Origin: a virus
UHGV virus genome: UHGV-1752853
Reading direction: 5' to 3' (one strand)
DNA: 22,496 nucleotides
Within the stretch, counting starts at the first letter, position 1. Each line of letters starts with the position of its first letter. The position numbers were made by a program, and so were the translations under genes. The notes below the pieces were generated by a model that was given only the letters and a program-made list of their open reading frames with translations, had not been told where the DNA came from and searched no databases. Positions 4,952-21,642 of this stretch are shown here, in pieces.

Positions 4952-4988
4952 AACCCCGATTGCGTCAACAGTCGGGGTTTTGTGTTTA
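4952..4988 (+). terminator. Terminator-like hairpin downstream of the endolysin
   Basis: AACCCCGA/TCGGGGTT 8-bp stem (4952-4959 and 4972-4979), 12-nt loop, followed by TTTGTGTTT. Confidence 0.4.
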
Positions 4989-6601: not shown

Positions 6602-6846
6602 AATTCCAGCTGGCAAGAATTTATAAAGGTGATCTGTTTGCATGTTTTGGTATTGCAGTAAACGGTGAATTGCTGGAAGGACAATTGTCTTCCCGGATTA
6701 ATACTGAGGCGATAAACTTTCCTTCCGTTACGATCGAATTCCGACTGACCTGTGAAGAAATTGGAAACAGTATTGACATTAACGTGAACGAGATCCTGAC
6801 GAGTAAACACACGGATGAAAGATACCGGAGTTTGCCTCGTCAGTAG
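6598..6846 (+). CDS. Hypothetical acidic protein (82 aa), unrecognised
   Basis: ORF track; preferred over the overlapping minus-strand ORF 6556-6849, which has only a TTG start and no Met anywhere. Confidence 0.4.
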   Translation: MKFQLARIYKGDLFACFGIAVNGELLEGQLSSRINTEAINFPSVTIEFRLTCEEIGNSIDINVNEILTSKHTDERYRSLPRQ

Positions 6847-6858: not shown

Positions 6859-7047
6859 TTATTTCATATTGGTTGATGAGAGCATTTTTCTGTCCGCACT
6901 CAGCCTCCGGCGACAGGCCTCAATGACCCATGCTGAAAAATTTCCCGACTCTTTTTTGTCAAGAGCGATATTGATCTGCTCAATCATATGATTCGGAAAA
7001 CGGATATTGCGGGTTGTGGTTCTGCGGGTCCGGTTTTTCGATGACAT
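6859..7047 (-). CDS. Ribbon-helix-helix (Arc/MetJ-like) DNA-binding protein (62 aa)
   Basis: AAGGA SD with 7-nt spacer before ATG on the minus strand; sequence RNIRFPNHMIEQINIALDKKESGNFSAWVIEACRRRL fits a beta-strand/helix/helix pattern resembling P22 Arc. Confidence 0.5.
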   Translation of the reverse strand: MSSKNRTRRTTTRNIRFPNHMIEQINIALDKKESGNFSAWVIEACRRRLSADRKMLSSTNMK

Positions 7048-7087
7048 TGTCTGTTCCTTTATTTCTGCATCCTGACGGAGATTTTAC

Positions 7088-7453
7088 ATGGCGGCATTAC
7101 CTGTACTCCAGAGCCGAATTAAACCCCTGAGCACCCGACGAATGAATGTCCTGCAGGGTGAAGACCGACGCATCAGTGGTCGGGCAAGAGTGAATCTCAA
7201 ACGCAGGATCTGGCAGAGGGATGGCGGTCGCTGTTGTCTTTGTGGGCGTGTTGCTGACCTGTGTGACAGTGAACTCGATCACCGCATTGCTCTTCAGTTC
7301 GGTGGTGGTAATGAGGAGGCCAATCTCTGGACACTCTGTACGGAATGCCATCGTCTGAAGTCAGCCCGTGAGATGGCGAGCGGTATGCCGGATCCGAGGT
7401 TGCCGGAAGTGTCGGGTAGTGCCGACAGAACCGACGACATCATAGGGCTCTGA
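7088..7453 (+). CDS. HNH endonuclease (terminase/cos-associated, HK97 gp74-like position)
   Basis: HNH/zinc motif CCLCGR...ELDHRIALQFGG...NLWTLCTECHRLKS; sits directly upstream of the cos-like region and small terminase. Confidence 0.85.
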   Translation: MAALPVLQSRIKPLSTRRMNVLQGEDRRISGRARVNLKRRIWQRDGGRCCLCGRVADLCDSELDHRIALQFGGGNEEANLWTLCTECHRLKSAREMASGMPDPRLPEVSGSADRTDDIIGL

Positions 7454-7738
7454 CCAGACCCCGGGGGGGAGCTTACGGCGAAAAAAAACGATCGCCACGG
7501 ACACCGCGCCCCCCCTCACGCAGAGAAAAAATTCCCGTTCAGAAGTTATAAACATGTTTATACCATACATGGCGCTTTTCTGCATTTTTTACTTTTAAAT
7601 TCATTGTGTTGCTGGAGAAAAATGTTTATACCCTGTCCCCGCAAAATGTTTACAGGGCAGCGGTAAACATTTCCCCTGTTGCATCCATTCTCACCGGGGT
7701 GATTGCTGAAATTTTTCTGTGTTTTTCCGGAGGGAGGA
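7454..7738. other. Putative cos region: G7/C7 dyad (candidate cosN) plus repeated ATGTTTAYA elements (candidate terminase-binding sites)
   Basis: GGGGGGG at 7463-7469 and CCCCCCC at 7509-7515 in inverted context; ATGTTTATACC at 7554-7564 and 7622-7632, ATGTTTACAGGG at 7646-7657, inverted GTAAACAT at 7663-7670; lies between the HNH and TerS genes. Confidence 0.5.
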
Positions 7739-8317
7739 ATGCTGACGACGCAAAAACGAAAATTTGCGCTGGCGCTGATGTCGGGTAAAAACCGAACGGC
7801 CTCCGCCATTGAAGCAGGCTATTCAGAAAAGTCAGCCAGGTGTAAAGGTTCACAACTGGCAAAAGATCCGGAAGTGCTCGCTTTTATTGCCCGTAAAAAA
7901 TGCGAGATGGTGGAGGTGGATGAGGTTCCTGTTTACCGGAAGAAAAAAACACAGACAGAGGATAACAACCGGTGCTCAGGGACAACAGAAAAGAAAACAC
8001 AGACCGCACCAGAGCCGGATAACGATAAAAGCCTGCCGCCAGTGCCTGCCGGTATACCAGGCGTTGATTACATGGAGGACGGCCTTCCTGACCCGGTGAA
8101 AGCCATGGGCAGGATCCTGGTGGAAAACCTCAGCGTTGATCCGAAACTGGCACTGGATGCGGCCTGGCGACTGGCGCAGTTCACGCACCACAAAAAAGGG
8201 GATGCCGGTAAAAAATCGGCAAAAGGTGAGGCGGCAAAAAAAGCGGCTAACCGTTTTGCCACACCTGCGCCGCCGCCCCGTCTGGTGGTGAATAACAATC
8301 GTGAGGGAAATGAATGA
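7739..8317 (+). CDS. Terminase small subunit, P27 family
   Basis: GGGAGGA RBS then ATG 7739; N-terminal KRKFALALMSGKNRTASAIEAGYSEKSA helix-turn-helix pattern typical of P27-family TerS; 4-nt overlap with TerL. Confidence 0.75.
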   Translation: MLTTQKRKFALALMSGKNRTASAIEAGYSEKSARCKGSQLAKDPEVLAFIARKKCEMVEVDEVPVYRKKKTQTEDNNRCSGTTEKKTQTAPEPDNDKSLPPVPAGIPGVDYMEDGLPDPVKAMGRILVENLSVDPKLALDAAWRLAQFTHHKKGDAGKKSAKGEAAKKAANRFATPAPPPRLVVNNNREGNE

Positions 8318-9966
8318 CACCTGTATGGAGCACGGCATGTCCGGACTGGGCGGCGCGTCTGAAAAAAGGGCAGTCGATAATTCCGGCCCCCATTTATCCG
8401 GACCAGGCCGCGCAGGCACTGGCGATTTTTAAACAACTGCGGATTGTTGATGCACCGGGCAGTCCGGCGTTCGGGCAGGCCTGTGCCCCGTGGGTGTTTG
8501 ACCTGGTGGCGGCCCTGTTTGGCTCCTGTGATGCGCAGACCGGTGTACGCCATATCAAGGAAGTGTTCATTCTGATACCCAAGAAAAACTCCAAATCCAC
8601 GCTGGCCGCCGGGATCATGATGACGGCGCTGTTACTGAACTGGCGGCAGGCGGCGGGCTACACCATTCTGGCACCGACCGTGGAGGTTGCCACCAATGCC
8701 TTCAATCCCGCCCGCGATATGGTTAAGTGGGATGATGATCTGGATGATCTCTGTCAGGTGCAGACGCATATCCGTACCATCACCCACAGGATGACGGACA
8801 CCACCCTGAAGGTGGTGGCTGCGGATCCGAATACAGTGTCCGGTATCAAGTCTGTGGGGACACTGATTGATGAACTGTGGCTGTTTGGCAAGCAGTACAA
8901 GGCAGAGGACATGTTACGTGAAGCCATTGGCGGACTTGCCTCCCGTCCGGAAGGGTTTGTGGTGTATACGACCACACAGTCGAATGAGCCACCCGCCGGG
9001 GTGTTCAGGCAGAAGCTGCAGTATGCCCGTGATGTCCGTGACGGAAAAATTCATGATCCGCACTTTCTGCCGGTGATTTTTGAGCATCCGCCGGAGATGG
9101 TGGCCAGCGGGGAGCACCTGCTGATGGAGAACCTTGCCATGGTGAACCCGAATCTGGGGTATTCCGTGGATGAATCCTTTCAATTCCGAAAGGCAAAGGA
9201 GACGGGTGAAGAGGCTTTTCTCGGATTTATGGCAAAACACGCCAATGTGGAAATCGGTCTTGCCCTGCGCTCTGACCGGTGGGCAGGAGCGGATTTCTGG
9301 GAGCAGCAGGGTCGGAAGATAAGTTTTGAGGATATCCTGGCACGTTCTGAAGTGATCACTGTGGGCATTGACGGTGGAGGGCTTGACGATCTGCTGGGGA
9401 TGTATGTCATCGGCAGGGACCGGGAGAGCCGTGAATGGCTGGGCTGGGGGCATGCCTGGGCGCATGAAACCGCGATGGACAGACGAAAGAGCGAGGCATC
9501 CCGTTTCCAGGATTTTGTGGCCTGTGGCGATATGACCCTTGTCCGGCGGGTCGGGGATGACACGGCGGAGGTGGCGGAATATGTCAGGCGTATCCATGAG
9601 GCCGGGTTACTTGATCGTATCGGCATCGATCCGTCCGGCGTCGGACAAATTCTGGATGCGCTGGTGGAGGCCGGCATTCCGGAAGAGGGGGTGGCGGGGA
9701 TAAGCCAGGGCTGGAAACTGGGCGGTGCCATCAAAACCGCGGAACGCAAACTGGCGGAAGGTGTGCTGGTGCATGGCTGGCAGCCGATGATGGCCTGGTG
9801 TGTGGGGAATGCCAGGGTGGAGCCCAGAGGTAACGCCATTCTCATCACAAAACAGGCCAGCGGGAAGGGGAAGATAGATCCGCTGATGGCGCTGTTCAAT
9901 GCGGTATCCCTGATGTCGCTGAATCCGGAGCCGAAAAAGAAAGAGTACAGGGCTTTTTTCATATGA
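8314..9966 (+). CDS. Terminase large subunit
   Basis: 550 aa; Walker A-like ILIPKKNSKSTLAAG; length and position follow TerS. Confidence 0.85.
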   Translation: MTPVWSTACPDWAARLKKGQSIIPAPIYPDQAAQALAIFKQLRIVDAPGSPAFGQACAPWVFDLVAALFGSCDAQTGVRHIKEVFILIPKKNSKSTLAAGIMMTALLLNWRQAAGYTILAPTVEVATNAFNPARDMVKWDDDLDDLCQVQTHIRTITHRMTDTTLKVVAADPNTVSGIKSVGTLIDELWLFGKQYKAEDMLREAIGGLASRPEGFVVYTTTQSNEPPAGVFRQKLQYARDVRDGKIHDPHFLPVIFEHPPEMVASGEHLLMENLAMVNPNLGYSVDESFQFRKAKETGEEAFLGFMAKHANVEIGLALRSDRWAGADFWEQQGRKISFEDILARSEVITVGIDGGGLDDLLGMYVIGRDRESREWLGWGHAWAHETAMDRRKSEASRFQDFVACGDMTLVRRVGDDTAEVAEYVRRIHEAGLLDRIGIDPSGVGQILDALVEAGIPEEGVAGISQGWKLGGAIKTAERKLAEGVLVHGWQPMMAWCVGNARVEPRGNAILITKQASGKGKIDPLMALFNAVSLMSLNPEPKKKEYRAFFI

Positions 9967-9992
9967 ACCCTGTTCACCCTGTAACCATCACG

Positions 9993-10013
9993 AACCGCTG
10001 CGGCGGTTTTTTT
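9993..10013 (+). terminator. Terminator-like hairpin between the terminase and the protease-capsid gene
   Basis: AACCGC-TGCG-GCGGTT stem-loop followed by TTTTTTTATTTT. Confidence 0.4.
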
Positions 10014-10030
10014 ATTTTCAGGAGGCTGAT

Positions 10031-11971
10031 GTGACGCTTAAACGGGCCTGTTCCCTGCTGACGGTGAAATCCTTCAGTGAGGATGAACGGGTGATCACCG
10101 GGATTGCATCAACGCCTTCTCCGGACAGGGATGGTGACATCCTGGAGCCGGAGGGGGCTGAATTCGGCAGTACAATCCCGTTTCTCTGGCAGCATGACCA
10201 TTCCCGCCCGGTGGGACAGTGTACGGTACGCCGGGTCAGAGAGGGGCTGGAAATCACGGCGGCACTGGTGAAGCCCGAACCGGGGATGCCGTCACAGCTG
10301 GCAGCCCGGCTGGATGAAGCCTGGGCCGCCATAAAAACCGGGCTGGTCAGGGGGCTTTCAGTGGGCTTCCGTGCCCATGAATACACTTTTCTTGACGGGG
10401 GTGGCCTGCATTTTCTGCGCTGGGAGATGATGGAGGTGTCTGCCGTCACCGTGCCCGCGAATGCGGAATGCACTATTCAGACCATTAAATCTTACGACCG
10501 ACCGCTTTCTGCCGCGTCCGGCAACCGGAAACCGGTGGTGAAAATCGCATCTTCTGCCGGCGTTCCGGCACAGTCAGCAACCGTTTTTCAGAAGGAAAAG
10601 ACAGGCATGAATATCGGTGAACAGATCAAAAGTTTCGAAAACAAACGTGCGGCACTGGTGGCAGCCCTGGATGACATCATGACGAAGGCCGCGAATGAGG
10701 GACGTACGCTGGATGCGGGCGAAGAGGAGAGCTACGACAATACGTCGGCGGAAATCAAGGCCGTGAATGCACACCTGAAACGTCTGCGTGACATGGAGGC
10801 GAACCTGGCCGCCACGGCCACGCCGGTGGAAAAGACGGCCGATGGCATGGTGAAAAGTGTGCAGCCGGCAGCGCCCGGCATCATCCGCGTGGAGCAGAAA
10901 CTGGATAAAGGGATCGGCTTTGCCCGTTTCGCCAAATCACTGGCGGCAGCCCGGGGTGTCCGTTCTGAGGCGCTGGAAGTGGCGCGTCGCCAGTATCCGG
11001 ATGACAGCCGCCTGCATCACGTCCTGAAATCTGCCATTGGTGCGGGCTCCACCACCGATCCCTCATGGGCAGGTAATCTGGTGGAGTATCAGGACTACGC
11101 GCAGGATTTTATTGCGTTCCTGCGTCCGCAGACCATCATCGGGCGTTTCGGGCAGGGGGGGCTACCGGCACTTCGCCAGGTGCCGTTCAATATCCGCGTG
11201 CATGCTCAGGTCTCCGGCGGGTCGGCCAGCTGGGTGGGGCAGGGTAAGGCAAAACCGCTGACAAAATTTGATTTTGAGTCCATCACATTTGGTCATGCGA
11301 AGGTGGCAGCCATTGCGGTGCTGACCGACGAGCTGATCCGTTTTGCCAGTCCGGCCGCAGATGCGCTGGTGCGTAATGCGCTGGCGGAGGCGGTGATAGC
11401 CCGTCTGGACACGGATTTTGTGGATCCCGGCAAGGCGGAGGTGGCAAATATTTCTCCTGCGTCGATCACCAGCGGTATCACTGCGGTGGCGTCAACAGGG
11501 ATCCCGGAAAGTGATGCGGAGGCGGCCTTCGGTCAGTTTGTGAAGGCGAACCTGCAGCCGACCGGTGCGGTGTGGCTGATGTCCAGCACGAATGCCCTGG
11601 CTCTGTCCATGCGCAAAAACGCGCTGGGCCAGAAGGAATATCCGGACATGACGCTGCTGGGCGGCACCTTCTGTGGCCTGCCGGTGATTGTCTCCCAGTA
11701 TGTGGGCAGTCAGCTGATCCTGGTGAACGCGCCGGATATTTATCTGGCGGATGACGGGGGGGGCGCGGTGGATATGTCCACCGAGGCCTCACTGGAGATG
11801 CAGGGTGAACCGACAGGGGACAGCACCACGCCGGTGCCGGTTGAACTGGTTTCCATGTTCCAGACCAACAGCGTGGCCATTCGTGCGGAACGCTGGATCA
11901 ACTGGCGTCGTCGCCGTACGGCAGCGGTGGCCGTGATTTCCGGGGTGAATTACGGCGCGGCGGCAGGCTGA
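10031..11971 (+). CDS. Fused HK97-family prohead protease and major capsid protein (with coiled-coil delta/scaffold segment)
   Basis: GTG start with AGGAGG RBS; N-terminal prohead-protease pattern (ITGIAS...GDILEPEGAEFG...PFLWQHD...LSVGF...VTVPAN), then a coiled-coil segment, then an HK97 MCP-like C-terminal half. Confidence 0.8.
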   Translation: MTLKRACSLLTVKSFSEDERVITGIASTPSPDRDGDILEPEGAEFGSTIPFLWQHDHSRPVGQCTVRRVREGLEITAALVKPEPGMPSQLAARLDEAWAAIKTGLVRGLSVGFRAHEYTFLDGGGLHFLRWEMMEVSAVTVPANAECTIQTIKSYDRPLSAASGNRKPVVKIASSAGVPAQSATVFQKEKTGMNIGEQIKSFENKRAALVAALDDIMTKAANEGRTLDAGEEESYDNTSAEIKAVNAHLKRLRDMEANLAATATPVEKTADGMVKSVQPAAPGIIRVEQKLDKGIGFARFAKSLAAARGVRSEALEVARRQYPDDSRLHHVLKSAIGAGSTTDPSWAGNLVEYQDYAQDFIAFLRPQTIIGRFGQGGLPALRQVPFNIRVHAQVSGGSASWVGQGKAKPLTKFDFESITFGHAKVAAIAVLTDELIRFASPAADALVRNALAEAVIARLDTDFVDPGKAEVANISPASITSGITAVASTGIPESDAEAAFGQFVKANLQPTGAVWLMSSTNALALSMRKNALGQKEYPDMTLLGGTFCGLPVIVSQYVGSQLILVNAPDIYLADDGGGAVDMSTEASLEMQGEPTGDSTTPVPVELVSMFQTNSVAIRAERWINWRRRRTAAVAVISGVNYGAAAG

Positions 11972-11996
11972 TGCGCTGACAGGGAGGGCGGGGCGG

Positions 11997-12263
11997 ATGA
12001 TGCCCCGCCGTACTGAGATGACCAGAATCAGATATCTGCAGATGACACATGACGCTGCGCCGGGGGATGTCCGTGATGTGGACGGGCGCTGCGCCCGTGT
12101 GCTTGTCCTGCTGGGGAAGGCGGAATATCTGCCCGCCGTGAAGCGTCCGCCCCGAAAACCACGCAGCCGGAGTACAGAACATGTGGAACCCGTTCAGGAA
12201 AAAATCGATCCCGCAACCGGTGAGTCAGCAGGGATGGAAGACCCTGCTGAGGTTTACCGGTGA
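11997..12263 (+). CDS. Hypothetical ORF (88 aa) overlapping the portal start in another frame
   Basis: ORF track; GGGAGGGCGGGG upstream; overlaps the portal frame by about 83 nt; may be a real small gene or a frameshifted N-terminus. Confidence 0.2.
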   Translation: MMPRRTEMTRIRYLQMTHDAAPGDVRDVDGRCARVLVLLGKAEYLPAVKRPPRKPRSRSTEHVEPVQEKIDPATGESAGMEDPAEVYR

Positions 12264-13530
12264 ATCTTATCCCGGAGCCTGGCAACGGGACGACGGAATA
12301 CATCAGGACACGGTACTGGCTTACCATGCCGTGTTTGCCTGTATCTCCCTGATTGCCGGTGATATTGCAAAAATGCGTCCCCGGGTCATGCACCGTGACC
12401 GGCACGGTGTGCCCTCTGAGGTCCGTACCGGCAGTGCGGCTGCGATATACCGCAGGCCCAACGCTTTTCAGAACCGTATTCAGTTTTTTGAACACTGGAT
12501 GAGTTCAAAGCTGTGTCACGGTAACACGGTGGCCCTGAAAATACGCAACAGCCGGGGAGAGACGGAGGCCCTGCGTCTGCTTGACTGGCACAGGGTGATG
12601 CCCCTGGTGGCGGATGACGGCTCCGTGTTTTATCAGATTTCACCCGACCGGATGGCGGGTCTGGGCAGTACGGTGACGGTACCGGCCCGGGAAATTATTC
12701 ATGACCGGTTTAACTGTTTTTTTCATCCGCTTGTGGGGCTGTCTCCCGTGTATGCGGCCGGGCTGGCAGCGATGAACGGACACTGGATCCAGCATAATTC
12801 GGCGTATTTTTTCCGCAACGGTGGCCGTCCCGGCGGAATTATTGAAGTGCCAGGCAGCATCACGACAGAAAACGCCCTTGAGCTGAAAGAGGCCTGGGAA
12901 CGTGGCTACAGCGGAGAGAATGCCGGGCGCACGGCCGTGCTGAGTGACGGGGCGAAGTATAACCCCGTGTCGGTGTCTGCCGTGGATGCGCAGACCGTGG
13001 AGCAGCTGAAGATGACGGCAGAAATTATCTGTTCGGTCTTCCATGTGCCGGCTTACAAGGCCGGGATGGGCAGTCTGCCCTCGTCAGACAACATTGAGGC
13101 GCTGGAGCAGCAGTATTACTCGCAGTGTCTCCAGACACTCATTGAGTCTGCTGAACTGCTGCTGGATGAGGCTTTTGGTCTGGAGGGTACATATTCGACG
13201 GAGTTTGACATCAGTGCCCTGCTGCGTATGGACACTGAACGCCGTATCAGAACGCTGGGCGAGGGGGTGAAAAACACCCTTCTCACGCCGAACGAGGCCC
13301 GCAGACGGGAAAATCTGCCGCCGCTGCCCGGGGGGGATGCGCTGTACCTGCAGCAGCAGAACTACAGTCTGGAGGCCCTTGCACGGCGTGATGCATCCGC
13401 AGATCCGTTTGCTTCCGGTAAGCAGACCAGCAGGCAGGAAGAGACGGCGTCTGACGTCGGGAGTAAGGCCATCAGTGAAACAGAGCGCGATGCCGTGAAG
13501 GCGATGTTCAGGGGGATAATGAGAAAATGA
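12181..13530 (+). CDS. Portal protein, HK97 family
   Basis: 449 aa; LAYHAVFACISLIAGDIA and downstream motifs resemble HK97-family portals. Confidence 0.8.
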   Translation: MWNPFRKKSIPQPVSQQGWKTLLRFTGESYPGAWQRDDGIHQDTVLAYHAVFACISLIAGDIAKMRPRVMHRDRHGVPSEVRTGSAAAIYRRPNAFQNRIQFFEHWMSSKLCHGNTVALKIRNSRGETEALRLLDWHRVMPLVADDGSVFYQISPDRMAGLGSTVTVPAREIIHDRFNCFFHPLVGLSPVYAAGLAAMNGHWIQHNSAYFFRNGGRPGGIIEVPGSITTENALELKEAWERGYSGENAGRTAVLSDGAKYNPVSVSAVDAQTVEQLKMTAEIICSVFHVPAYKAGMGSLPSSDNIEALEQQYYSQCLQTLIESAELLLDEAFGLEGTYSTEFDISALLRMDTERRIRTLGEGVKNTLLTPNEARRRENLPPLPGGDALYLQQQNYSLEALARRDASADPFASGKQTSRQEETASDVGSKAISETERDAVKAMFRGIMRK

Positions 13531-14606
13531 CGGAAAGGGAGTTATCCATTATCCGTGCGCTGGGTGAGGAGTTCCGGGCTGTGCTGGCGGACTTACAGCG
13601 CACATTTGAGGAGAAGATGGCCGCGCAGTCGCAGGCATTTGAAGAGAAGCTGGCGTCCCTGTCTGCGGTGCAGCAGAAAAGCGTGACGGCTGATGATATG
13701 CGTCCTGTGCTGCAGACGATGGTGGATGAGGCCGTGGGCACCATTCCGGTACCGCGCGACGGGCGTGATTACGATCCGGACGTGCTGCAGCAGGCGGTGC
13801 GGGAGGAGGTGCAGAAGGCAGTGTCAGAAATTCCGGTGCCTCAGGACGGTAAAAGTGTCACTGCGGATGATGTACGTCCGATGCTCGAGCAAATGGTGAA
13901 GAATGCAATGAGCCGGATACCGGTACCGCGCGACGGCCGCGATTACGATCCGGATGTACTGCAGAAGGCGGTGAATGACGCAGTCGCTAAAATTCCGGTA
14001 CCTGCAGACGGTAAAAGTATCACGCCTGACGATGTACAGCCCATGCTGTCGCAGATGGTGAATGACGCAGTGAGTCAGATCCCGGCACCGCGCGACGGCA
14101 GGAGTGTGACGGTTGACGATGTGCGTCCGGTGCTGCTGGCGATGGTGGATGAGGCCGTGAGCCGGTTACCTGTTCCGCAGGACGGGCGTGATGCTGCGGC
14201 CCTGGAAATACTGCCCGGTATTGATGAACAGAAACATTATCCGCGGGGGACTTATGCAACCCATCACGGCGGCCTGTGGCGTGCGTACGAAAAAACCTGC
14301 GGCATGCGCGGCTGGGAATGTCTTGTTGACGGCGTTGCCGGCGTGGACATTCAGCAGGACGGTGCGCGATGTTTCACCGTCACGCTGACGCGGTCCGGTG
14401 GCGAAAGGAACGTGAAGTCTTTCGCACTTCCGGTCATGCTTTACCGGGGCGTGTTTGCAGAGGGTGCAGAATACCAGCCGGGCGACATCGTCACCTGGGG
14501 GGGCTCACTGTGGCACTGCAATGCGCTGACGACGGACAGGCCCGGTGAAACCGGGACAACCGGCTGGACGCTGGCGGTGAAAAAAGGGCGGGATCTGAGG
14601 GGCTGA
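13527..14606 (+). CDS. Head-module protein with tandem ~40-aa repeats and C-terminal carbohydrate-binding-like (CBM5/12-like) motifs
   Basis: Repeats of IPVPRDGRDYDPDVLQ.AV... and IPVP.DGKS.T.DDV.PML.QMV across about 13680-14190; C-terminal YQPGDIVTWGGSLWHCNALTTDRPGE resembles the chitin-binding-domain consensus. Confidence 0.55.
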   Translation: MTERELSIIRALGEEFRAVLADLQRTFEEKMAAQSQAFEEKLASLSAVQQKSVTADDMRPVLQTMVDEAVGTIPVPRDGRDYDPDVLQQAVREEVQKAVSEIPVPQDGKSVTADDVRPMLEQMVKNAMSRIPVPRDGRDYDPDVLQKAVNDAVAKIPVPADGKSITPDDVQPMLSQMVNDAVSQIPAPRDGRSVTVDDVRPVLLAMVDEAVSRLPVPQDGRDAAALEILPGIDEQKHYPRGTYATHHGGLWRAYEKTCGMRGWECLVDGVAGVDIQQDGARCFTVTLTRSGGERNVKSFALPVMLYRGVFAEGAEYQPGDIVTWGGSLWHCNALTTDRPGETGTTGWTLAVKKGRDLRG

Positions 14607-14935
14607 TGATGACAGAACTGGTCACGCCGGAAGCGGCGAAAATGCATCTGCGCATTGATGACAGTGAGGGGGAGGCGGATCTGCTGCTGAAAATTCAGGG
14701 GAGCAGCGCAGTCCTGCTTTCCTGGCTGCAGGAGGGCAGGCGTCTGGTGGTGAACGATGATGGTGAACTGATCGAGGGTGAGGCGCTGAGCCGGGTACAG
14801 ACGGCCCTGCTGTTCCTGCTGGGATATCTGGACAGGAACCGGGGCGGGGAGGAAGAGGAGAAGCTGATGCGCGGGGAACTGCCCCTGTCGGTCACGATGC
14901 TGATCCATGATCTCCGTAAGCCTGTCATTGTGTGA
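14606..14935 (+). CDS. Head-tail connector (gp6-like) protein
   Basis: N-terminal VTPEAAKMHLRIDDSEGEADLL resembles the gp6-like connector family; start overlaps the upstream stop. Confidence 0.65.
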   Translation: MMTELVTPEAAKMHLRIDDSEGEADLLLKIQGSSAVLLSWLQEGRRLVVNDDGELIEGEALSRVQTALLFLLGYLDRNRGGEEEEKLMRGELPLSVTMLIHDLRKPVIV

Positions 14936-15039
14936 CAGCGTCAGAAAGTCCCCTCATTTTTACTTTTCGGGGGCGTGTATGGCATGTGCGGGCTGCGTCA
15001 GGCAGCGGGAATGGGTGAAACAGTGGACGAGGATAGCGT

Positions 15040-15231
15040 ATGAACGGGCAACAGGAAAACGAACTCATCAGTGTACTGAGGGCGCTGGCAGCCGCCCAGA
15101 TAAAACAGGCGGAGGCCATCAACAGGCTGGCGGAGGCGGATGAGACCCTGTACTCACTCATCGCCCGCACGCTGGCGGACGAGACGGAGGAAGAGCCGGA
15201 GACGTATCTTGACGGAACGCCACGGAGGTGA
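15040..15231 (+). CDS. Small hypothetical protein (63 aa)
   Basis: ORF track; GAGGA RBS 7 nt upstream; acidic C-terminus. Confidence 0.4.
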   Translation: MNGQQENELISVLRALAAAQIKQAEAINRLAEADETLYSLIARTLADETEEEPETYLDGTPRR

Positions 15232-15233
15232 AC

Positions 15234-15566
15234 ATGGAGTTTTCATCACTGCGCCACCGTATTACGCTGCAGCGACGGACGGGTGTCCAGTCACCGGTGA
15301 CCGGTGCCATGGAATACCACTGGTCGGATGTGGCGACGCTGTGGGCACAGGTGGTTCCGGTCTCCGTCAGGGAATTCATTGCCGCCCAGGCGGTGAACAA
15401 TGAAATTACCGTCAGGATGGTGATCCGCTGGCGGGCGGATATCAGTGACAGGGATCGGGTGTTGTTTCGCGGGAAGCTGTACAGCATTGAAGGTATTCTT
15501 CCCGATCCGGTCAGCGGCAGGGAATACCTGACGCTGGCCTGCAGTGAGGGAGTGAAGGATGGCTGA
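15234..15566 (+). CDS. Head closure / head-tail adaptor protein
   Basis: GGAGG RBS then ATG 15234; SSLRHRITLQRR... resembles head-tail adaptor proteins; order after the connector. Confidence 0.65.
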   Translation: MEFSSLRHRITLQRRTGVQSPVTGAMEYHWSDVATLWAQVVPVSVREFIAAQAVNNEITVRMVIRWRADISDRDRVLFRGKLYSIEGILPDPVSGREYLTLACSEGVKDG

Positions 15567-16113
15567 TGGCATTACGATGAAAATGGAGGGACTGGATGCC
15601 CTTGCAGGAAAACTGTCCGCGCTGTCAGGTGTAGCGGAGAGTAAGGCCGGGCGCTTTGCCCTGCGGAAGGCGGCGAATGTGATTCGTGACCGTGCAAGGG
15701 CAAATGCGGCCCGAGTGGATGATCCACAGACGCCGGAGGCCATACACCAGAATATCGTGGCCCGGTTCAGCAACAAAAGATACCGGCAGACCGGGGAGCT
15801 GGCTTTTCGGATCGGCGTGCTGGGTGGCGCCCGCCGGACGCTGAGTGCGGCAGCTGCGCGGAAGGCCGGACAACGGCAGAAACGTCAGGGAACCGCCACG
15901 CTGGCGTCGCAGGGAGAGCTTCCCGGCTCAGGAAAAGGTAACCCGGGCGGGGATACCTGGTACTGGCGTTTTCTGGAGTTCGGCACGGAGCATGCTGAAG
16001 CCAGATCGTTCATGCGGCCTGCCATGAATGGTGCGGATGCAGAAGTCGTCAGCACGTTTGTGAATGAATTTGAGAAAGCGGTTGACCGGGCCATCAGGAG
16101 GATGTCGCGATGA
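15559..16113 (+). CDS. HK97 gp10-like tail component protein
   Basis: Size, position and GRFALRKAANVIRDRARANAA / WYWRFLEFGTEHAEARSFMRPA motifs. Confidence 0.6.
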   Translation: MADGITMKMEGLDALAGKLSALSGVAESKAGRFALRKAANVIRDRARANAARVDDPQTPEAIHQNIVARFSNKRYRQTGELAFRIGVLGGARRTLSAAAARKAGQRQKRQGTATLASQGELPGSGKGNPGGDTWYWRFLEFGTEHAEARSFMRPAMNGADAEVVSTFVNEFEKAVDRAIRRMSR

Positions 16114-16478
16114 TGATTAATCCGCTGTTCAGCGTCTGTGCCTCCTGTCCGGAGGTGACCGCACTGATTGGCAGTGATCCGGTCAGGCTGTATGCCTTTG
16201 GCAGCCAGGACGATGAGGTGATTTATCCGTACGTGACCTGGCAGAACACCGGCGGTGAGCCGGCGCTTTACCTGGGGAGCCGTCCTGATATTGACCGCTG
16301 GGCGGTGCAGATTGACGTCTGGGCCTCCACAGCGGATGAGGCGCTTGCCGTCGCGACGGCACTGCGTGATGCGATTGAAACGCAGGCCTGCATCACCCGC
16401 TGGGGCGGCCAGAGCAGGGATCCGGAAACGCGCAGTTACCGGTTCTCTTTTGATGCGGACTGGCTGGTCAGCCGTTAA
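16110..16478 (+). CDS. Tail completion protein (DUF3168-like)
   Basis: Position and size; ATGA overlap with the upstream gene. Confidence 0.5.
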   Translation: MMINPLFSVCASCPEVTALIGSDPVRLYAFGSQDDEVIYPYVTWQNTGGEPALYLGSRPDIDRWAVQIDVWASTADEALAVATALRDAIETQACITRWGGQSRDPETRSYRFSFDADWLVSR

Positions 16479-16500
16479 TGTCCGTGATGTTCGTACAGTC

Positions 16501-16529
16501 AGCCCGCCATTGTGCGGGTTTCTTTTTTT
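16501..16529 (+). terminator. Terminator/attenuator-like hairpin upstream of the major tail gene
   Basis: AGCCCGC-CATTGT-GCGGGTT stem followed by TCTTTTTTTC. Confidence 0.35.
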
Positions 16530-16545
16530 CAGGAGAAAATGAACC

Positions 16546-17064
16546 ATGTCAGTTGTCACCCAGGGCACGCAGTTCTATGTGCTCAATAACGGCAAAGTCA
16601 GTGAAATTGAATGTATCACGTCGTTTTCCCCGGGCAGTAACCCGGCCGACCAGATAGAGGATACCTGTCTGAGTGAGACCAGCACGCGGACCTATAAAAA
16701 GGGGCTGCGCACGCCGGGTGAGGCCACGGTGGGGCTCAATGCCGATCCGGCCAATGCCAGCCATATCATGCTCAGTAATCTTGCTGAGTCCAGTGACCAG
16801 ACGGTGCTGACCTTTGCCGTGGGCTGGTCCGACGGTACGGAGGCCCCCACAGCCTCCACGGAGGCCGATGCCGTAAATGGTATGGCCCTGCCGGACACCC
16901 GGACCTGGTATGTGTTCCAGGGCTACGTGTCGGATTTTCCGTTTGACTTTCAGGCTAACAGCGTGGTGCAGACATCAGCCACCATTCAGCGTTCCGGTCA
17001 GGGGGTGTGGGTGCCGAAACAGCAGACGGTTACTCCCGGTCCGGCAGCCGCCGTGACGACCTGA
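16546..17064 (+). CDS. Major tail protein
   Basis: AGGAG RBS; 172 aa; position immediately upstream of the G/GT chaperone pair. Confidence 0.65.
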
Positions 17065-17109
17065 TGCGTGTTCAGGACAACGTGTCCGATTTTCAGAGAG
17101 GAAAAAACC

Positions 17110-17448
17110 ATGCAGTTAACCAGAGAAAACCTTCAGAACCCCTGCCTGTTTGCCGGGCGTCCGGTCCGCAGGACCATCACATGGAAACAGGGGGGCAGGG
17201 AACTGACCGCCACCACCTGGATCCGTCCGCGGAGTTATCAGGATATTGTTCTGGAAACAGAGGCGGGAAAGGAGAACACGATAGCCGTGCGTATTGCCCG
17301 TTCGGTCTGTGATGAGCAGGGTGAACCGGTGTTCACGGTGGCTGACATCACCGGAGAGGCCTGTCCGGAGCGGGGGCCCCTGGATGCAGGACTGACCGTC
17401 GCCCTGCTGCAGGCAATAAGTGATGTTTATCTGGGAAAGACGGACTGA
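17110..17448 (+). CDS. Tail assembly chaperone G
   Basis: AGAGAGGA RBS then ATG 17110; canonical lambda-type slippery heptamer G GGA AAG at 17433-17439 near the 3' end. Confidence 0.75.
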   Translation: MQLTRENLQNPCLFAGRPVRRTITWKQGGRELTATTWIRPRSYQDIVLETEAGKENTIAVRIARSVCDEQGEPVFTVADITGEACPERGPLDAGLTVALLQAISDVYLGKTD

Positions 17449-17744
17449 GTCCGGAGGACGAGTTCTGGTGTGAGCTGGTGCTGAACGGCATTGGTGGCCG
17501 TACCATTGCGGAGGCGTAGGCACGCCTGAGTTTTCCGGAATACCGTCTCTGGCTGCGGTACCGGCAGAAATACGGCAGTCTGAACCCGATGCTCAGGGCG
17601 GAATGGTGTGCCGGACTGCTGGCCAGCGTGACGGCCAATATGTGGCGAAGCTCACAGATTCCGCCGTTCCGTCTGACGGATTTCACGCCACATATTGATG
17701 AACCTCCCGTTTCGCTGGAAGAGGCCATGGAATGGTGGGATTAG
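17433..17744 (+). pseudogene. T-domain (-1 frameshift extension of G) interrupted by an in-frame TAG at 17517-17519
   Basis: The -1 frame from the slippery site reads GKDGLSPEDEFWCELVLNGIGGRTIAEA-stop, then continues ARLSFPEYRLWLRYRQKYGSLNPMLRAEWCAGLLASVTANMWRS...EEAMEWWD to TAG 17742-17744; pattern resembles phage minor tail protein T. Confidence 0.5.
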
Positions 17745-17834
17745 AAATGGACAGGATGATAAAGATCAGTTAAGCATGCAAATGCTGAACTAAAAATAAT
17801 CGTTTTTATGTAATGCATGGAGTAATGACACACT

Positions 17835-18443
17835 ATGACAGCAAATAAAACATATCTCGCGATCCTGGCGTTCTGTTTATTTGCCTCAGCGCAGTCTTTC
17901 GCTGCTGCTGGCGACAGCACCCTGTCGGCGGCTTATGCCGGGATTTATACAGGGAAATATCTGCAGGATATCGGGCGAAGTGACCGGCTTGCGGAAGGCG
18001 TTAACGTCAAATACCGTTATGAAGCAGATGATGCCTGGGGGGTTATCGGCGCGTTGACGTATGCCAGAGGAACTCCGGCTTTTTCGGTGACGGGGATTAC
18101 TGATCTCGGTGTGGCAGAAGGGGATGAGAAGACCAGACTGGAATACCTGAGTATTCAGGCCGGCCCTGCGTACCGGTTTAATGAATTTTTCAGTGCATAT
18201 GCAATGACCGGGGTAGCCACCACAAAATATGACGGCAGTGCGCATTTGTATGGAGTTGATGCTTCGGGGAAAAGTTTTTCCTGGTACGGAAAGGATTCGG
18301 AGAGAAAAACGAACCTGGCCTACAGTGTGGGACTGCAGTTTAATCCGCTGAAAGAACTGGCGGTGGATGTGTCATTTGAAGGTTCGGGTTTTGACAGCTG
18401 GAAAACATCGGGAATTAATGCCGGTCTTGGCTGGAGCTTCTGA
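17835..18443 (+). CDS. Ail/Lom/OmpX-family outer membrane beta-barrel protein (moron)
   Basis: Signal peptide MTANKTYLAILAFCLFASAQSFAAAG; alternating amphipathic strands; C-terminal GLGWSF ending in Phe; AT-rich upstream region; followed by terminators. Confidence 0.7.
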   Translation: MTANKTYLAILAFCLFASAQSFAAAGDSTLSAAYAGIYTGKYLQDIGRSDRLAEGVNVKYRYEADDAWGVIGALTYARGTPAFSVTGITDLGVAEGDEKTRLEYLSIQAGPAYRFNEFFSAYAMTGVATTKYDGSAHLYGVDASGKSFSWYGKDSERKTNLAYSVGLQFNPLKELAVDVSFEGSGFDSWKTSGINAGLGWSF

Positions 18444-18478
18444 CGGCACTCGTCGATATCGTAACAGGACGTGTACAG

Positions 18479-18534
18479 GGTCACCTCAGGGTGGCCTTTC
18501 TTTTTTTGTCACACCGCCGGCGGGCGTTTTTTTT
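18479..18534 (+). terminator. Tandem intrinsic terminators downstream of the Ail/Lom-like gene
   Basis: GGTCACC-TCAG-GGTGGCC followed by TTTCTTTTTTT (18479-18508); CGCC-GGCG-GGCG followed by T8 (18513-18534). Confidence 0.5.
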
Positions 18535-18546
18535 CGGGAGGCACCG

Positions 18547-21213
18547 ATGGCAGGAAAATCCCTCGGAACGCTGACGCTGGATCTGATTGCCAGGACCGCC
18601 GGTTTTGCGTCAGGGATGAGCCAGGCAGAACGGAGTTCCGCGAAATGGCGTAAGAAAATTGTGGCGGATGTGGATGCGGTGGCCACCGCCTTTGCGGCTG
18701 CTTCTTCCGCAGCGGTGGCCACGGCCGCAGGCGTGGGAGCGTATGGTTTTAATCTGCTGAAGAGCTCGTCGTCACAGATTGCGGAAGCAAAACGGCTTTC
18801 GGATGCACTGGGCATGTCCACACAGGCACTGCTGTCCTGGCAGTATGCAGCCGGAAAGGCGGGGGTGTCCGGAGAGCAGATCGCCGACATTTTTAAGGAT
18901 CTCGGTGACAAAATTGGTGATGCGGCGCTGAACAAATCCGGGGAAGCGGTGGATGCCCTGGATGCGCTGGGGCTGTCGGCGGAAAAACTGAAGTGGGTCT
19001 CACCGGATGAGCAGCTGCTGGCCATCAGCGATGCGCTGAAAAAAATCGGTACCACGTCAGAGAAAACGACGATCCTTGAGAGTCTGGGTAACGACCTGTC
19101 CAGAATGCTGCCACTGCTGGAGCAGGGCGGTGAAAAACTCCGTCAGTACATGGCGGCAGCGCAGACGTTCGGTGTGGCCCCTGATGATGCGGATATTGAG
19201 AAGCTGGTCAGGACGAACGCCCTGTTTGAGGACATGGCGTCTCAGGTGGATGGTGTGAAAATCGCGCTGGCCACCGGGCTGGCGGATGTCGACCTGTCCG
19301 GCGTGCAGAATGCCATCACGGAGATCGGTGAGACGCTCAGGGACCCGCAGGTTCTGCAGGGGCTGACAAATCTGGTGCAGGGGGCGGCAGATCTGGCCGG
19401 GTGGCTGATAAAGGTGGCGGCTGCGGCCGGTAATATTGCGGCCCTGACCCGGCAGGGGATAGCACAGAATGCCGGTGGTGCCCTGAAAACGGAGGCCAGT
19501 GCGGCGGATATCCGGGCCCGTATAGCGGAGCTTGAGAAACAGCAGCAGGAAAACGTTTATCCGGTAAAACGGTGGATGAATGTTGCCGGACGGATGCTGC
19601 AGCGAAAGGACGGCAGTCCGGAGGATGAGCTGGCGCTGCTGAAAGGGCGTCTCCCCCTGGCAGAGAAGCTGGACAGGGAGGTCAGGCCGGCCATTGACCT
19701 TGCTCTTCCCGCAACAGAGAAGACCGTGAATACCGGGACGATCAGGCAGGACTATCGTCTGGCACCGGGGCAGAGTAACGGCAAAACCTCTGCCTCTCAG
19801 GCGGACAGGGATGCGAAGAAGGTCCTGAACAGCTTCAGGCAGATGGAGGACTCGTATCAGCGGCAGATTGCGCTGGCTGACACCACAGGGGAACGGACAA
19901 AGGCGCTCACGGAGCTGGAGAAACTTCAGTACGAGATGGCCTCAGGAAAGCTCACGAATCTGAATGAGGCGCAGAAAACCCGGCTGACGCAGCTGGCGAC
20001 AGAGCTGGACCAGCTGAATGCACAGAAAAAGGCCATGGAGGAGCAGAAGCAGCTTCAGGCCTTCACGGCCGGCCAGCAGGCGCAGACCCGTAACGCACAG
20101 GACATGCTGGACACGGAATTTGTCGGGGCAGGTGAGGGGGAGCAGCTACGGTCGCGGATACGTGAGCTGCTGGACATTCAGCGTTCGTATTATGACCAGC
20201 TGGAGACGCTTCGGCAGCGTCAGGAAAGCGGGGATATCACCCGGACGCTGTATGAAGGGGAGACGGCGGTCCTGAAGCAGGAGTTCGAAAAACGGCTCCG
20301 GATGCAGCAGGACTATTACCGCAGACTGGATGCGCTGAATGATGACTGGCTGAGCGGGGCCGGTGATGCGCTGAAGGATTACGTGACGGAGGCGGACAAC
20401 AATGCCGCGATGGCGAAGAGCGCGGTGACCAGTGTGCTGGGCACCACGGAAAACAGCGTGTCGGCGATGCTGGATGACATCATCAGGGGAACCAAAAGTG
20501 CCGGTGATGCCGTGAAAGATGTGGTGGAGGACCTGGGCAATGCCATCATCACCGAACTGGAGAACATCGCGGCGAAGAAAATCGTGGCCGGCCTTTTCGG
20601 CGGGCTGGCGGGAGAGAGCAACATCGCCGGAAGCGGCGATCTGCTTTCGCTGCTGACGGGTGCAGGCAGTAACGGTGACAGCAGCGCGGGCAGTGCGGTG
20701 GCAGGGGCGACGTCTTCCCTGACGGACAGTGACATGCTGTCCGGGCTGAAGGCGGTACTGAACACCTCCCTGACGGATGAACTGGGCTCGCTGCTGTCGT
20801 CGCTGGGCAGCTCGCTGTCGGGGATGCTGTCCGGTCTGTCCGGGAGCGGAGGCGGTTTTCTGTCCCTGCTGGGGATGGCGCATGACGGTATCGACAGTGT
20901 GCCGGCCACGGGGACCTGGCTGCTGGAAAAAGGAGAACGGGTTATTTCCGGCAGAACATCGAAAAAACTGGATGCGACCCTGAGCGCCGTCCATTCGGCG
21001 GCGGGGAACCGTTCAGGTGGACAGAATTTTTCATATTCTCCGGTCATTAATGTGAACGGCGATCCGGATGCGCGGACGCTGAAAATGCTGGAGCAGGCGG
21101 TGCAGCAGGGGGCGAAACGGGGATATCAGATGGTGGCTGAGAGTCTGAGCACCGGCAGTGGTGCCGTGCATTCTGCGGTGAACACCCGTTACGCCAGACG
21201 CAGGAGCGGATGA
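18547..21213 (+). CDS. Tail tape measure protein
   Basis: 888 aa from ATG 18547 (the track ORF starts upstream at 18367, within the terminators); long alpha-helical/coiled-coil composition; Gly/Ser-rich C-terminal region. Confidence 0.85.
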   Translation: MAGKSLGTLTLDLIARTAGFASGMSQAERSSAKWRKKIVADVDAVATAFAAASSAAVATAAGVGAYGFNLLKSSSSQIAEAKRLSDALGMSTQALLSWQYAAGKAGVSGEQIADIFKDLGDKIGDAALNKSGEAVDALDALGLSAEKLKWVSPDEQLLAISDALKKIGTTSEKTTILESLGNDLSRMLPLLEQGGEKLRQYMAAAQTFGVAPDDADIEKLVRTNALFEDMASQVDGVKIALATGLADVDLSGVQNAITEIGETLRDPQVLQGLTNLVQGAADLAGWLIKVAAAAGNIAALTRQGIAQNAGGALKTEASAADIRARIAELEKQQQENVYPVKRWMNVAGRMLQRKDGSPEDELALLKGRLPLAEKLDREVRPAIDLALPATEKTVNTGTIRQDYRLAPGQSNGKTSASQADRDAKKVLNSFRQMEDSYQRQIALADTTGERTKALTELEKLQYEMASGKLTNLNEAQKTRLTQLATELDQLNAQKKAMEEQKQLQAFTAGQQAQTRNAQDMLDTEFVGAGEGEQLRSRIRELLDIQRSYYDQLETLRQRQESGDITRTLYEGETAVLKQEFEKRLRMQQDYYRRLDALNDDWLSGAGDALKDYVTEADNNAAMAKSAVTSVLGTTENSVSAMLDDIIRGTKSAGDAVKDVVEDLGNAIITELENIAAKKIVAGLFGGLAGESNIAGSGDLLSLLTGAGSNGDSSAGSAVAGATSSLTDSDMLSGLKAVLNTSLTDELGSLLSSLGSSLSGMLSGLSGSGGGFLSLLGMAHDGIDSVPATGTWLLEKGERVISGRTSKKLDATLSAVHSAAGNRSGGQNFSYSPVINVNGDPDARTLKMLEQAVQQGAKRGYQMVAESLSTGSGAVHSAVNTRYARRRSG

Positions 21214-21228
21214 GGAGAATGATGGCGA

Positions 21229-21642
21229 ATGACAATAACAACGTCGGTTAACTGGCCGGAGAGTCTTCCGCTGCCGCTGGCTGACGGATACACACAGACT
21301 CCGGTGAGTCCGGTCATGCGGACGGAGCTTGGCAGCGGACGGGCCATCATGCGCCGCCGTTTTGTCTCCACGCCGGTGATGATTTCCGTCAGCTGGCTGC
21401 TGAGTGAGGCGCAGGCCGGGACATTTGAGGATTTTTATTACAACACGCTGGCAGACGGGGTGCGGTGGTTCCGTATTGCCCTGCGTCTGCCGGGCAAGGC
21501 AGATGATGAAACGGTGGCAGCCCGTTTCACGGATATCTGGGATGCAGTCACCCTGACGGGTGGGGTGTGGTGGGAATATTCTGCCACTCTGGAAATACGG
21601 GAGCGGTATGTGGTGACCCGGGACAGGGGAGGCATGTCATGA
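21229..21642 (+). CDS. Minor tail protein (post-TMP, distal tail), family uncertain
   Basis: GAGGAG RBS; 137 aa; position immediately after TMP; contains a DGYTQ motif reminiscent of lambda M-like proteins. Confidence 0.45.
   Translation: MTITTSVNWPESLPLPLADGYTQTPVSPVMRTELGSGRAIMRRRFVSTPVMISVSWLLSEAQAGTFEDFYYNTLADGVRWFRIALRLPGKADDETVAARFTDIWDAVTLTGGVWWEYSATLEIRERYVVTRDRGGMS

What the first reader, a model, noticed from the sequence alone, without database searches (positions are those of the whole stretch)
9993..16529. Intrinsic terminator-like hairpins embedded within the late structural operon
Hairpins followed by U-runs occur between TerL and the protease-capsid gene (9993-10013) and immediately upstream of the major tail gene (16501-16529), in addition to those flanking the Lom-like moron. 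They may set relative expression levels under Q-dependent antitermination or mark module boundaries from recombination.
Basis: seen in the sequence. Interest (0 to 1): 0.2.

Follow-up and report, generated by a model that had tools for sequence, protein, structure and literature searches.

The report
Internal terminator hairpins in phage late operon
Two small hairpin-plus-U-run signals sit just upstream of the capsid and tail-tube genes of a lambda-like prophage; they are real, conserved, terminator-type elements of a kind already annotated in phage HK97, so the finding is sound but ordinary.

Summary
Both hairpins exist at the stated coordinates. Site 1 is 9992-10009 plus a T-run (dG -10.8 kcal/mol). 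Site 2 is 16501-16520 plus a T-run (dG -11.0). Each lies in a 64-67 nt gap on the coding strand and abuts the Shine-Dalgarno sequence of the protease-capsid gene or the tail-tube gene.

A strict terminator filter finds 3 such sites on the + strand of 7000-22496, against 0.2 expected. All three are intergenic.

Relatives keep a hairpin plus T-run at both positions, with different stem sequences and compensatory pair changes. For the capsid site this holds down to 35% protein identity in gamma- and betaproteobacterial relatives. Alphaproteobacterial relatives lack it.

The HK97 GenBank record annotates "putative terminator" at the equivalent places, and lambda has one between D and E. A phage L genome paper says the roles of such intra-operon terminators are unknown.

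Best reading: intrinsic terminators that stop RNA polymerase not modified by Q and are read through during lytic growth. Tuning expression by partial termination fits poorly, because both sites precede the most abundant proteins. Mosaic joints lie elsewhere, not at the hairpins. An RNA-stability or translation role remains possible.

The parts
8314..9966 (+). Large terminase subunit gene (TerL), upstream of site 1
   Evidence: PF03354 and PF20441; ORF coordinates
9992..10018 (+). Site 1: 7-bp stem (GAACCGC/GCGGTTT), tetraloop TGCG, then a T-rich tract. Terminator-like hairpin 25 nt after the TerL stop
   Evidence: (dG -10.8, z -3.2). Conserved in relatives with compensatory pairs
10020..10033 (+). 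Shine-Dalgarno AGGAGG (10020-10025) and GTG start of the protease-capsid gene, directly abutting the T-tract
   Evidence: The same GTG is the annotated start in the relative LC567821
10031..11971 (+). Fused prohead protease and major capsid protein gene
   Evidence: PF04586 + PF05065
11987..12009 (+). GC-rich 9-bp hairpin just after the capsid stop, with no T-run. A related but different element, not a canonical terminator
   Evidence: -24 kcal/mol. JLK-2012 has a hairpin of different sequence at the same place. Some relatives add a T-run there
16110..16478 (+). Tail terminator/completion protein gene, upstream of site 2
   Evidence: PF11367, phrog_78
16501..16529 (+). Site 2: 7-bp stem (AGCCCGC/GCGGGTT), loop CATTGT, then TCTTTTTTT. 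Terminator-like hairpin 22 nt after the upstream stop
   Evidence: (dG -11.0, z -3.4). All 46 distinct upstream sequences from 80 viral loci plus the window keep a hairpin plus T-run, and one pair covaries GC/CG
16531..16548 (+). Shine-Dalgarno AGGAG (16531-16535) and ATG start (16546) of the tail tube gene
16546..17064 (+). Major tail (tail tube) protein gene
   Evidence: PF16460, E 9e-67
18477..18507 (+). Third co-oriented canonical terminator, between lom (ends 18443) and the tape measure start (ATG 18548). A weak second stem plus T8 follows at 18515-18534
   Evidence: Present in L001, which lacks lom

Best explanation
The two elements are genuine Rho-independent terminators, co-oriented with the late operon of a lambdoid, HK97-like prophage. 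RNA polymerase that was loaded with the Q antiterminator at the late promoter reads through them during lytic growth, so they do not block virion gene expression. Polymerase that did not pass through Q loading stops at them before it reaches the capsid and tail-tube genes; such polymerase could start at spurious or moron promoters, or arrive by read-through in the lysogen. They therefore act as insulators that keep structural gene expression strictly Q-dependent.

Shown here: the canonical terminator anatomy, the orientation, the intergenic placement clear of the terminating ribosome, and the conservation of pairing and T-tract.

Inferred: that they terminate at all, that Q overrides them, and that insulation is the selected benefit.
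For: 1. Anatomy: 7-bp GC-rich stems, 4-6 nt loops and a T-tract immediately 3' of the stem.

2. Enrichment: 3 strict sites against 0.195 expected, all on the + strand and intergenic.

3. Conservation with changed stems. At the tail site 93.6% of cells are paired and pair 34/44 is GC in 21 and CG in 15 sequences. At the capsid site 94.6% are paired and pair 23/37 is CG in 15 and AU in 5. The T-tract is nearly invariant.

4. Depth: the capsid-site hairpin plus T-run is present in prophages of Enterobacterales, Marinobacter, Hydrocarboniphaga and Snodgrassella, and in Pseudomonas phage PAJU2 and Moraxella phage Mcat1, at 35-77% capsid identity.

5. Precedent: the HK97 record annotates 'putative terminator' at the syntenic sites, before the protease/capsid genes, before the major tail gene and before the tape measure gene. 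Lambda has one between D and E.

6. Q context: JLK-2012 has an annotated Q gene and both hairpins. Stx phages are Q-controlled (PMC7547250).

7. Contrast: P2 and Mu use late activators rather than processive antitermination (established knowledge). P2 shows no canonical terminator before its capsid gene, and the strict scan finds no clean intergenic one inside the late operons of either phage. The hairpins seen there have no T-run or only a short one (4 T).

8. Literature: the phage L genome paper offers this same explanation for intra-operon terminators (PMC8022706).
Against: There are no transcript 3'-end data for this or any close relative; the Sakai Term-seq tables were not available.

The Q gene itself lies outside the window.

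No sigma-70-like promoter was found on the + strand upstream of either site, so the transcription to be blocked is hypothetical.

Insulation alone does not easily explain why the sites that recur across deep divergence are those flanking the two most abundant proteins. That placement fits an RNA-level role at least as well.

The P2/Mu contrast rests on two genomes, and my strict filter missed the terminators annotated at the ends of the P2 operons.
Confidence: 0.55

Rival explanations
1. The hairpins act mainly at the RNA level. With the hairpins downstream of the same genes, they bracket the capsid and tail-tube cistrons. They could protect processed mRNA segments from exonucleases or from 5'-end-dependent RNase E attack. 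The U-tract next to the Shine-Dalgarno sequence could serve as an S1-binding translation enhancer. On this view terminator activity is incidental and harmless because Q overrides it.
For: The hairpins recur on both sides of the most highly expressed genes. Sites occur before and after capsid and before and after tail tube in relatives and in HK97. Lambda E is bracketed as well. A conserved hairpin without a U-run follows the capsid gene in the window and in JLK-2012. The stem end is always 20-25 nt from the start codon, so the U-tract abuts the SD. Conservation down to 35% protein identity argues for a direct fitness effect.
Against: A stabilising hairpin does not need a U-tract, yet the U-tract is nearly invariant at both sites. 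P2 has no hairpin before its capsid gene. Alphaproteobacterial relatives express a homologous capsid gene without any hairpin. No processing site or RNase data exist. At 7 bp the stems are too short for RNase III.
Confidence: 0.25
2. They are partial terminators (attenuators). Even under Q they drop a fraction of transcripts, which tunes the stoichiometry of late proteins.
For: The phage L paper lists this as one possibility. The terminators before the tape measure gene and, in relatives, after the capsid and tail tube genes are placed the right way round for it.
Against: Both hairpins of this finding lie between a low-copy gene and a high-copy gene (TerL then capsid; tail terminator then tail tube). 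Polarity would therefore lower exactly the products needed most. From established knowledge of lambda, late-gene yields are set mainly by translation initiation on an essentially equimolar transcript; this is recalled, not tested here.
Confidence: 0.1
3. They are scars or linker sequences that mark recombination joints between modules, with no function of their own.
For: TerL and capsid identities are discordant among relatives. TerL is 82% against 65% with the same capsid type, and 25% TerL against about 50% capsid in PAJU2 and Marinobacter. Exchanges near this junction have therefore occurred.
Against: Where the joint can be resolved, it lies about 800 nt upstream inside terL, not at the hairpin. 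The window/Stx-phage joint is near 12124. Both flanks of the tail site are homologous in all 80 viral loci. Compensatory changes and an invariant T-tract indicate selection on structure.
Confidence: 0.05

Closest known systems
Putative intra-operon terminators annotated in the late operon of phage HK97 (GenBank NC_002167)
   Same: Same syntenic positions: before the protease/capsid genes, before the major tail subunit gene (6692-6719, ACCCGCC AGAT GGCGGGT TTTCTTTTT then CCAGGAGA ATG), and before the tape measure gene after a moron. Same hairpin, T-run, SD, start layout.
   Different: The stem sequences differ. HK97 has separate protease and capsid genes and the order TerL, portal, protease, capsid, so its head-side terminator follows portal rather than TerL. 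HK97 also has T-run terminators right after the capsid and tail genes, where the window has a U-less hairpin or none.
Lambda D|E intergenic hairpin and the Q-overridden terminators of the lambda late operon (tR' and those around lom)
   Same: A GC hairpin plus T-run lies immediately upstream of the major capsid gene E (GGCCGC CTGT GCGGC TTTTTTT). Another hairpin follows E (7163-7180). Late transcription is made terminator-resistant by Q (PMC7547250).
   Different: Lambda has no gap or hairpin before its tail tube gene V (U ends 8947, V starts 8955). The lambda head genes are not homologous to the fused protease-capsid here.
Intra-operon terminators of P22-like phage L
   Same: Predicted Rho-independent terminators inside a single-promoter, antiterminated late operon. 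[quoted passage not shown]
   Different: [quoted passage not shown] It is a podovirus with unrelated structural genes.
Moron terminators (promoter, gene, terminator cassettes such as lom)
   Same: The hairpin at 18477-18498 follows the lom-like gene as in a classical moron.
   Different: Sites 1 and 2 have no extra gene or promoter attached. They lie between core structural genes, so they are not moron parts.

Membership tests
Rho-independent (intrinsic) transcription terminator | GC-rich stem of about 5-12 bp with a short loop | tested here: met
   7-bp stems with 4 and 5 GC pairs and loops of 4 and 6 nt; dG -10.8 and -11.0 kcal/mol, z about -3.2 and -3.4
Rho-independent (intrinsic) transcription terminator | U-tract immediately 3' of the stem | tested here: met
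   GCGGTTTTTTTATTTT and GCGGGTTTCTTTTTTT. The T-tract is nearly invariant in relatives
Rho-independent (intrinsic) transcription terminator | Co-oriented with the transcription unit and clear of the terminating ribosome | tested here: met
   On the + strand, starting 25 and 22 nt after the upstream stop codons. No A-run upstream, so not bidirectional
Rho-independent (intrinsic) transcription terminator | Produces RNA 3' ends / releases RNA polymerase | not testable with these tools
   No 3'-end data are available. The Sakai Term-seq supplements are not held
Intra-operon terminators of Q-antiterminated lambdoid late operons (HK97 type) | Lies inside a late operon downstream of a Q gene and late promoter | tested here: inconclusive
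   Q lies outside the window. The window has the late-region order: esterase, lysis genes, HNH, terminase, head, tail. The relative JLK-2012 has an annotated Q upstream of the homologous start of the window
Intra-operon terminators of Q-antiterminated lambdoid late operons (HK97 type) | Same syntenic positions as the annotated HK97 sites | tested here: met
   HK97 sites before the major tail gene, before the tape measure gene and before the protease/capsid genes
Intra-operon terminators of Q-antiterminated lambdoid late operons (HK97 type) | Read through by Q-modified polymerase but not by unmodified polymerase | not testable with these tools
   Needs transcription assays
Moron cassette | An extra, dispensable gene with its own promoter placed immediately before the terminator | tested here: not met
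   Sites 1 and 2 follow TerL and the tail terminator gene directly. No + strand promoter-like site was found. Only 18477-18498 follows a moron gene, lom
RNase III processing site (T7 type) | Extended duplex of about 20 bp | tested here: not met
   Stems are 7 bp
Curated RNA family (Rfam 15) | Match at the gathering score | tested here: not met
   The only hit in the window is STnc100 at 1-113

The most novel reading that the evidence does not exclude
The hairpin plus U-tract modules may be dual-purpose elements. They would be selected mainly because they bracket, and boost or protect, the mRNA segments for the two most abundant virion proteins, through a protective hairpin and an S1-binding U-tract next to the SD. 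They could also prevent leaky capsid synthesis in lysogens, where capsid proteins can trigger abortive-infection sensors. Either reading would explain why a terminator-shaped element has stayed directly upstream of the capsid gene across gamma- and betaproteobacterial phages down to 35% protein identity.
Probability: 0.2. Interest if true: 0.45.

Novelty: new member of a known kind. Interest (0 to 1): 0.2.

Why it matters
On its own this is routine annotation. It adds two (really three) internal terminators to the map of a lambdoid late operon and explains the only sizeable intergenic gaps in the structural region.

The wider pattern is modestly useful. Terminator-shaped elements sit at fixed places, directly before the capsid gene, the tail-tube gene and the tape-measure gene, in many phages. 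The literature states that their role is unknown (PMC8022706). The comparative set assembled here shows conservation with compensatory changes, presence in gamma- and betaproteobacterial hosts and absence in alphaproteobacterial relatives. It gives a concrete, testable system for that question. It also matters for engineering prophages or expressing these genes without Q.

Tried and rejected
- Rfam at gathering thresholds found nothing at either site; the only hit was STnc100 at 1-113.
- The tool's loose terminator scan was not enriched in the tail half of the window (7 against 8.7), so a stricter filter was written. A first RNAfold-based filter was too permissive and was dropped.
- I looked for 3'-end data. 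The EHEC Sakai Term-seq paper has no supplements held and was done on lysogens.
- The HnrS sRNA paper says only that the sRNA lies 'within the late genes', without coordinates. An sRNA ending at site 1 was considered and set aside, because no promoter-like sequence lies upstream.
- The HK97/HK022 genome paper is not held. The epsilon34 and Hfq-CLIP papers added nothing. Searches on lambda ribosome profiling and ONT-cappable-seq gave nothing directly relevant.
- The module-boundary idea was tested by protein-identity discordance and sliding-window nucleotide identity, and rejected for the resolvable cases.
- The relatives YYZ-2008 and JLK-2012 carry no regulatory annotation at these sites.
- My strict filter misses stems with bulges and stems whose A:T base pairs use up the T-run. 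It missed the lambda D|E hairpin at first and the P2 operon-end terminators. The negative result for P2 and Mu is therefore only suggestive.
Full report
**What is there**

The window is the late region of a lambdoid, HK97-like prophage. All the listed genes are on the + strand, in this order:

| Coordinates | Gene |
|---|---|
| 218-2215 | esterase-like ORF |
| between these | lysis genes |
| 7088-7453 | HNH endonuclease |
| 7703-8317 | TerS |
| 8314-9966 | TerL |
| 10031-11971 | fused prohead protease and major capsid protein |
| 11997-12263 | small conserved ORF |
| 12181-14606 | portal |
| 14606-16478 | adaptor, head closure, neck and tail-terminator genes |
| 16546-17064 | tail tube |
| 17068-17448 | tail assembly chaperone |
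| 17835-18443 | Lom-like moron |
| from 18548 | tape measure |

Most structural genes overlap or abut. The sizeable gaps are few.

**The observation**

At 9992-10009 a 7-bp stem (GAACCGC/GCGGTTT, loop TGCG) is followed by TTTTATTTT, then AGGAGG, then the GTG start of the protease-capsid gene.

At 16501-16520 a 7-bp stem (AGCCCGC/GCGGGTT, loop CATTGT) is followed by TCTTTTTTT, then AGGAG, then the ATG of the tail tube gene.

- The local folds are -10.8 and -11.0 kcal/mol, with z = -3.2 and -3.4 against dinucleotide shuffles.
- Each hairpin survives when the whole intergenic region is folded.
- These energies are somewhat weaker than those of the terminator-like hairpins near the start of the window (-14 to -16 kcal/mol), but they are not weak.
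- The hairpins begin 25 and 22 nt after the upstream stop codons, so a terminating ribosome would not cover them.

**Chance**

The tool's permissive scan is not enriched in the tail half of the window (7 found, 8.7 expected). I therefore used a stricter definition: a perfect stem of at least 6 bp with at least 4 GC pairs, a loop of 3-8 nt, and at least 6 T in 8.

On the + strand of 7000-22496 this gives three sites: the two of the finding and 18477-18498 after lom. The expectation is 0.195, and none of 200 shuffles reached three. All three are intergenic and co-oriented with the operon.

The region upstream of lom has no canonical terminator, so 'flanking the moron' is only half right.

**Conservation at the tail site**

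- Eighty viral contigs encoding relatives of the tail tube protein (71-85% identity), together with the window, gave 46 distinct upstream sequences. Every one has a hairpin, a T-run, an SD and a start.
- The stems fall into CCCGC/GCGGG and CCGGC/GCCGG types. In an alignment of 38 distinct sequences, 93.6% of cells are paired. The varying pair is GC in 21 and CG in 15, with no broken pairs apart from two rows that the aligner placed one column out of register.
- The Stx1 phage and JLK-2012 have a non-homologous, lambda-V-like tail tube. They still carry a hairpin plus T-run directly upstream of it.

**Conservation at the capsid site**

- Close relatives are nearly identical in sequence.
- A scan of species-representative genomes gave 29 loci at 35-79% capsid identity.
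- Nearly all gamma- and betaproteobacterial relatives have a hairpin plus T-run about 40 nt before the start, with stems that differ in sequence and length. These are prophages of Kluyvera, Enterobacter, Citrobacter, Pantoea, Erwinia, Rouxiella, Marinobacter, Hydrocarboniphaga and Snodgrassella, plus Pseudomonas phage PAJU2 and Moraxella phage Mcat1.
- In the alignment, 94.6% of cells are paired and one pair is CG in 15 and AU in 5 sequences.
- The alphaproteobacterial relatives have no such element.

**A recurring map**

Across the Enterobacterales loci, strict terminators recur at the same places:

- about -40 from the capsid start;
- just after the capsid gene, in some loci;
- 20-25 nt before an ORF of 160-172 aa (the tail tube);
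- after that ORF, in some loci;
- before the tape measure gene.

**What is known**

- The HK97 GenBank record annotates 'putative terminator' inside the late operon at 3309-3335 (before the protease/capsid genes), 5192-5213 (after capsid), 6692-6719 (before the major tail gene), 7443-7462 (after it) and 8398-8422 (before the tape measure gene), among others. The HK97 site before the tail gene has the same layout as site 2.
- Lambda has a hairpin plus T-run between D and E, and another hairpin after E.
[quoted passage not shown] It offers partial termination, or stopping transcription that started without antitermination (PMC8022706).

The finding is therefore a new instance of a documented kind of element.

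**Late-operon context**

- The Q gene is not in the window.
- The window starts with the 3' part of an STnc100-like sRNA element and an esterase gene.
- In JLK-2012 the homologous stretch lies downstream of an annotated Q-like antiterminator. JLK-2012 also carries both hairpins.
- Stx phages, which share the TerL-capsid module at 82-90% identity, are controlled by Q antitermination from PR' (PMC7547250).

**Mechanism**

The best reading is that these are real intrinsic terminators. Q-modified polymerase ignores them, and any other polymerase stops at them. This makes structural gene expression strictly Q-dependent.

Arguments in favour:

- The U-tract is nearly invariant, although a stabilising hairpin would not need one.
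- The same operon has a conserved U-less hairpin after the capsid gene, so U-less hairpins are available where termination is not wanted.
- P2 and Mu do not use processive antitermination. P2 shows no canonical terminator before its capsid gene, and the strict scan finds no clean intergenic one inside the late operons of either phage. The hairpins seen there have no T-run or only a short one (4 T). This contrast is small and my filter is imperfect.

Arguments against:

- No promoter-like sequence was found upstream.
- Insulation alone does not explain why the recurrent sites bracket the two most abundant proteins.

**Rival explanations**

- An RNA-level role (segment stabilisation, or a U-tract translation enhancer next to the SD) explains the bracketing and the fixed 20-25 nt spacing to the start codon. 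It remains a serious alternative, and the two roles could coexist.
- Tuning by partial termination is unlikely for these two sites, because they precede the high-copy genes and follow low-copy ones.
- The module-boundary idea was tested. TerL and capsid identities are discordant among relatives. Where the joint is resolvable, it lies about 800 nt upstream inside terL. The joint with Stx phages lies near 12124. The hairpin region itself is among the better conserved parts of the gap.

**Verdict**

The terminator interpretation is reasonable. The specific functional suggestions, expression tuning and module marks, are the weaker options. The feature is ordinary for lambdoid phages. Its only wider interest is the unresolved question of why such elements are kept at these exact positions.

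Noticed in passing
window 1-215: The window opens with the 3' part (model positions 95-206) of the Rfam sRNA STnc100 (77.9 bits). It ends in a strong terminator at 84-101, and a second terminator follows at 192-215. A 665-aa esterase-like ORF (phrog_143) comes next. In JLK-2012 the homologous stretch lies downstream of Q, tRNAs and tciA/B.
   Followed up: partly
window 11987-12009: A 9-bp GC hairpin (about -24 kcal/mol) with no T-run lies right after the capsid stop. The ATG codons at 11997/12000 of a small conserved ORF (phrog_829) lie in its loop, and a GGGAGGG lies in its 5' arm. JLK-2012 has a hairpin of different sequence at the same place. It may be an mRNA 3' stabiliser or a translational control element.
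   Followed up: partly
window 12181-14606: The portal region is two ORFs (449 aa with PF04860, then 359 aa matching the C-terminal part of the portal family phrog_2271 plus a weak CBM_5_12 hit). The two ORFs overlap by 4 nt. In YYZ-2008 the same region is annotated as one 2586-nt portal gene. Other relatives annotate two 'portal protein' genes.
   Followed up: no
window 2351-2948: Three direct copies (74-85% identity, spacing 300 and 236 nt) cover the ribosome site and first about 15 codons of the small membrane-protein gene at 2908-3126. The two upstream copies look like truncated duplicates. Each is followed by a minus-strand terminator-like hairpin (2592-2560 and 2816-2784).
   Followed up: partly
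window 3163-3179: A fourth co-oriented terminator-like hairpin (GGCCGCTCTGAGTGGCC followed by TTTTTT) lies inside the late operon, immediately before or overlapping the start of a holin-like ORF (GTG 3174, ATG 3186).
   Followed up: no
window 18444-18547 and L001 9488-9610: The E. coli O158 relative lacks lom but keeps the last few bases of it (TTCTGACGGCA) and the same downstream terminator, with wobble pairs changed to Watson-Crick. Either lom was deleted there, or the terminator belongs to the junction before the tape measure gene rather than to the moron. A second weak stem plus T8 (18515-18534) lies just before the tape measure SD.
   Followed up: partly
L167/L168, L170/L172 (about 800 nt upstream of the capsid start): Among Enterobacterales prophages the N-terminal two thirds of TerL comes in two types (about 40% nucleotide identity), joined to a shared C-terminal third and capsid gene. 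This is a mosaic joint inside terL.
   Followed up: partly
window 4949-4982: A 14-bp palindromic hairpin (TAAAACCCCGATTG...CAGTCGGGGTTTTG) lies after the 4327-4860 ORF in the lysis region. It is flanked by A and T runs and so looks like a bidirectional terminator.
   Followed up: no
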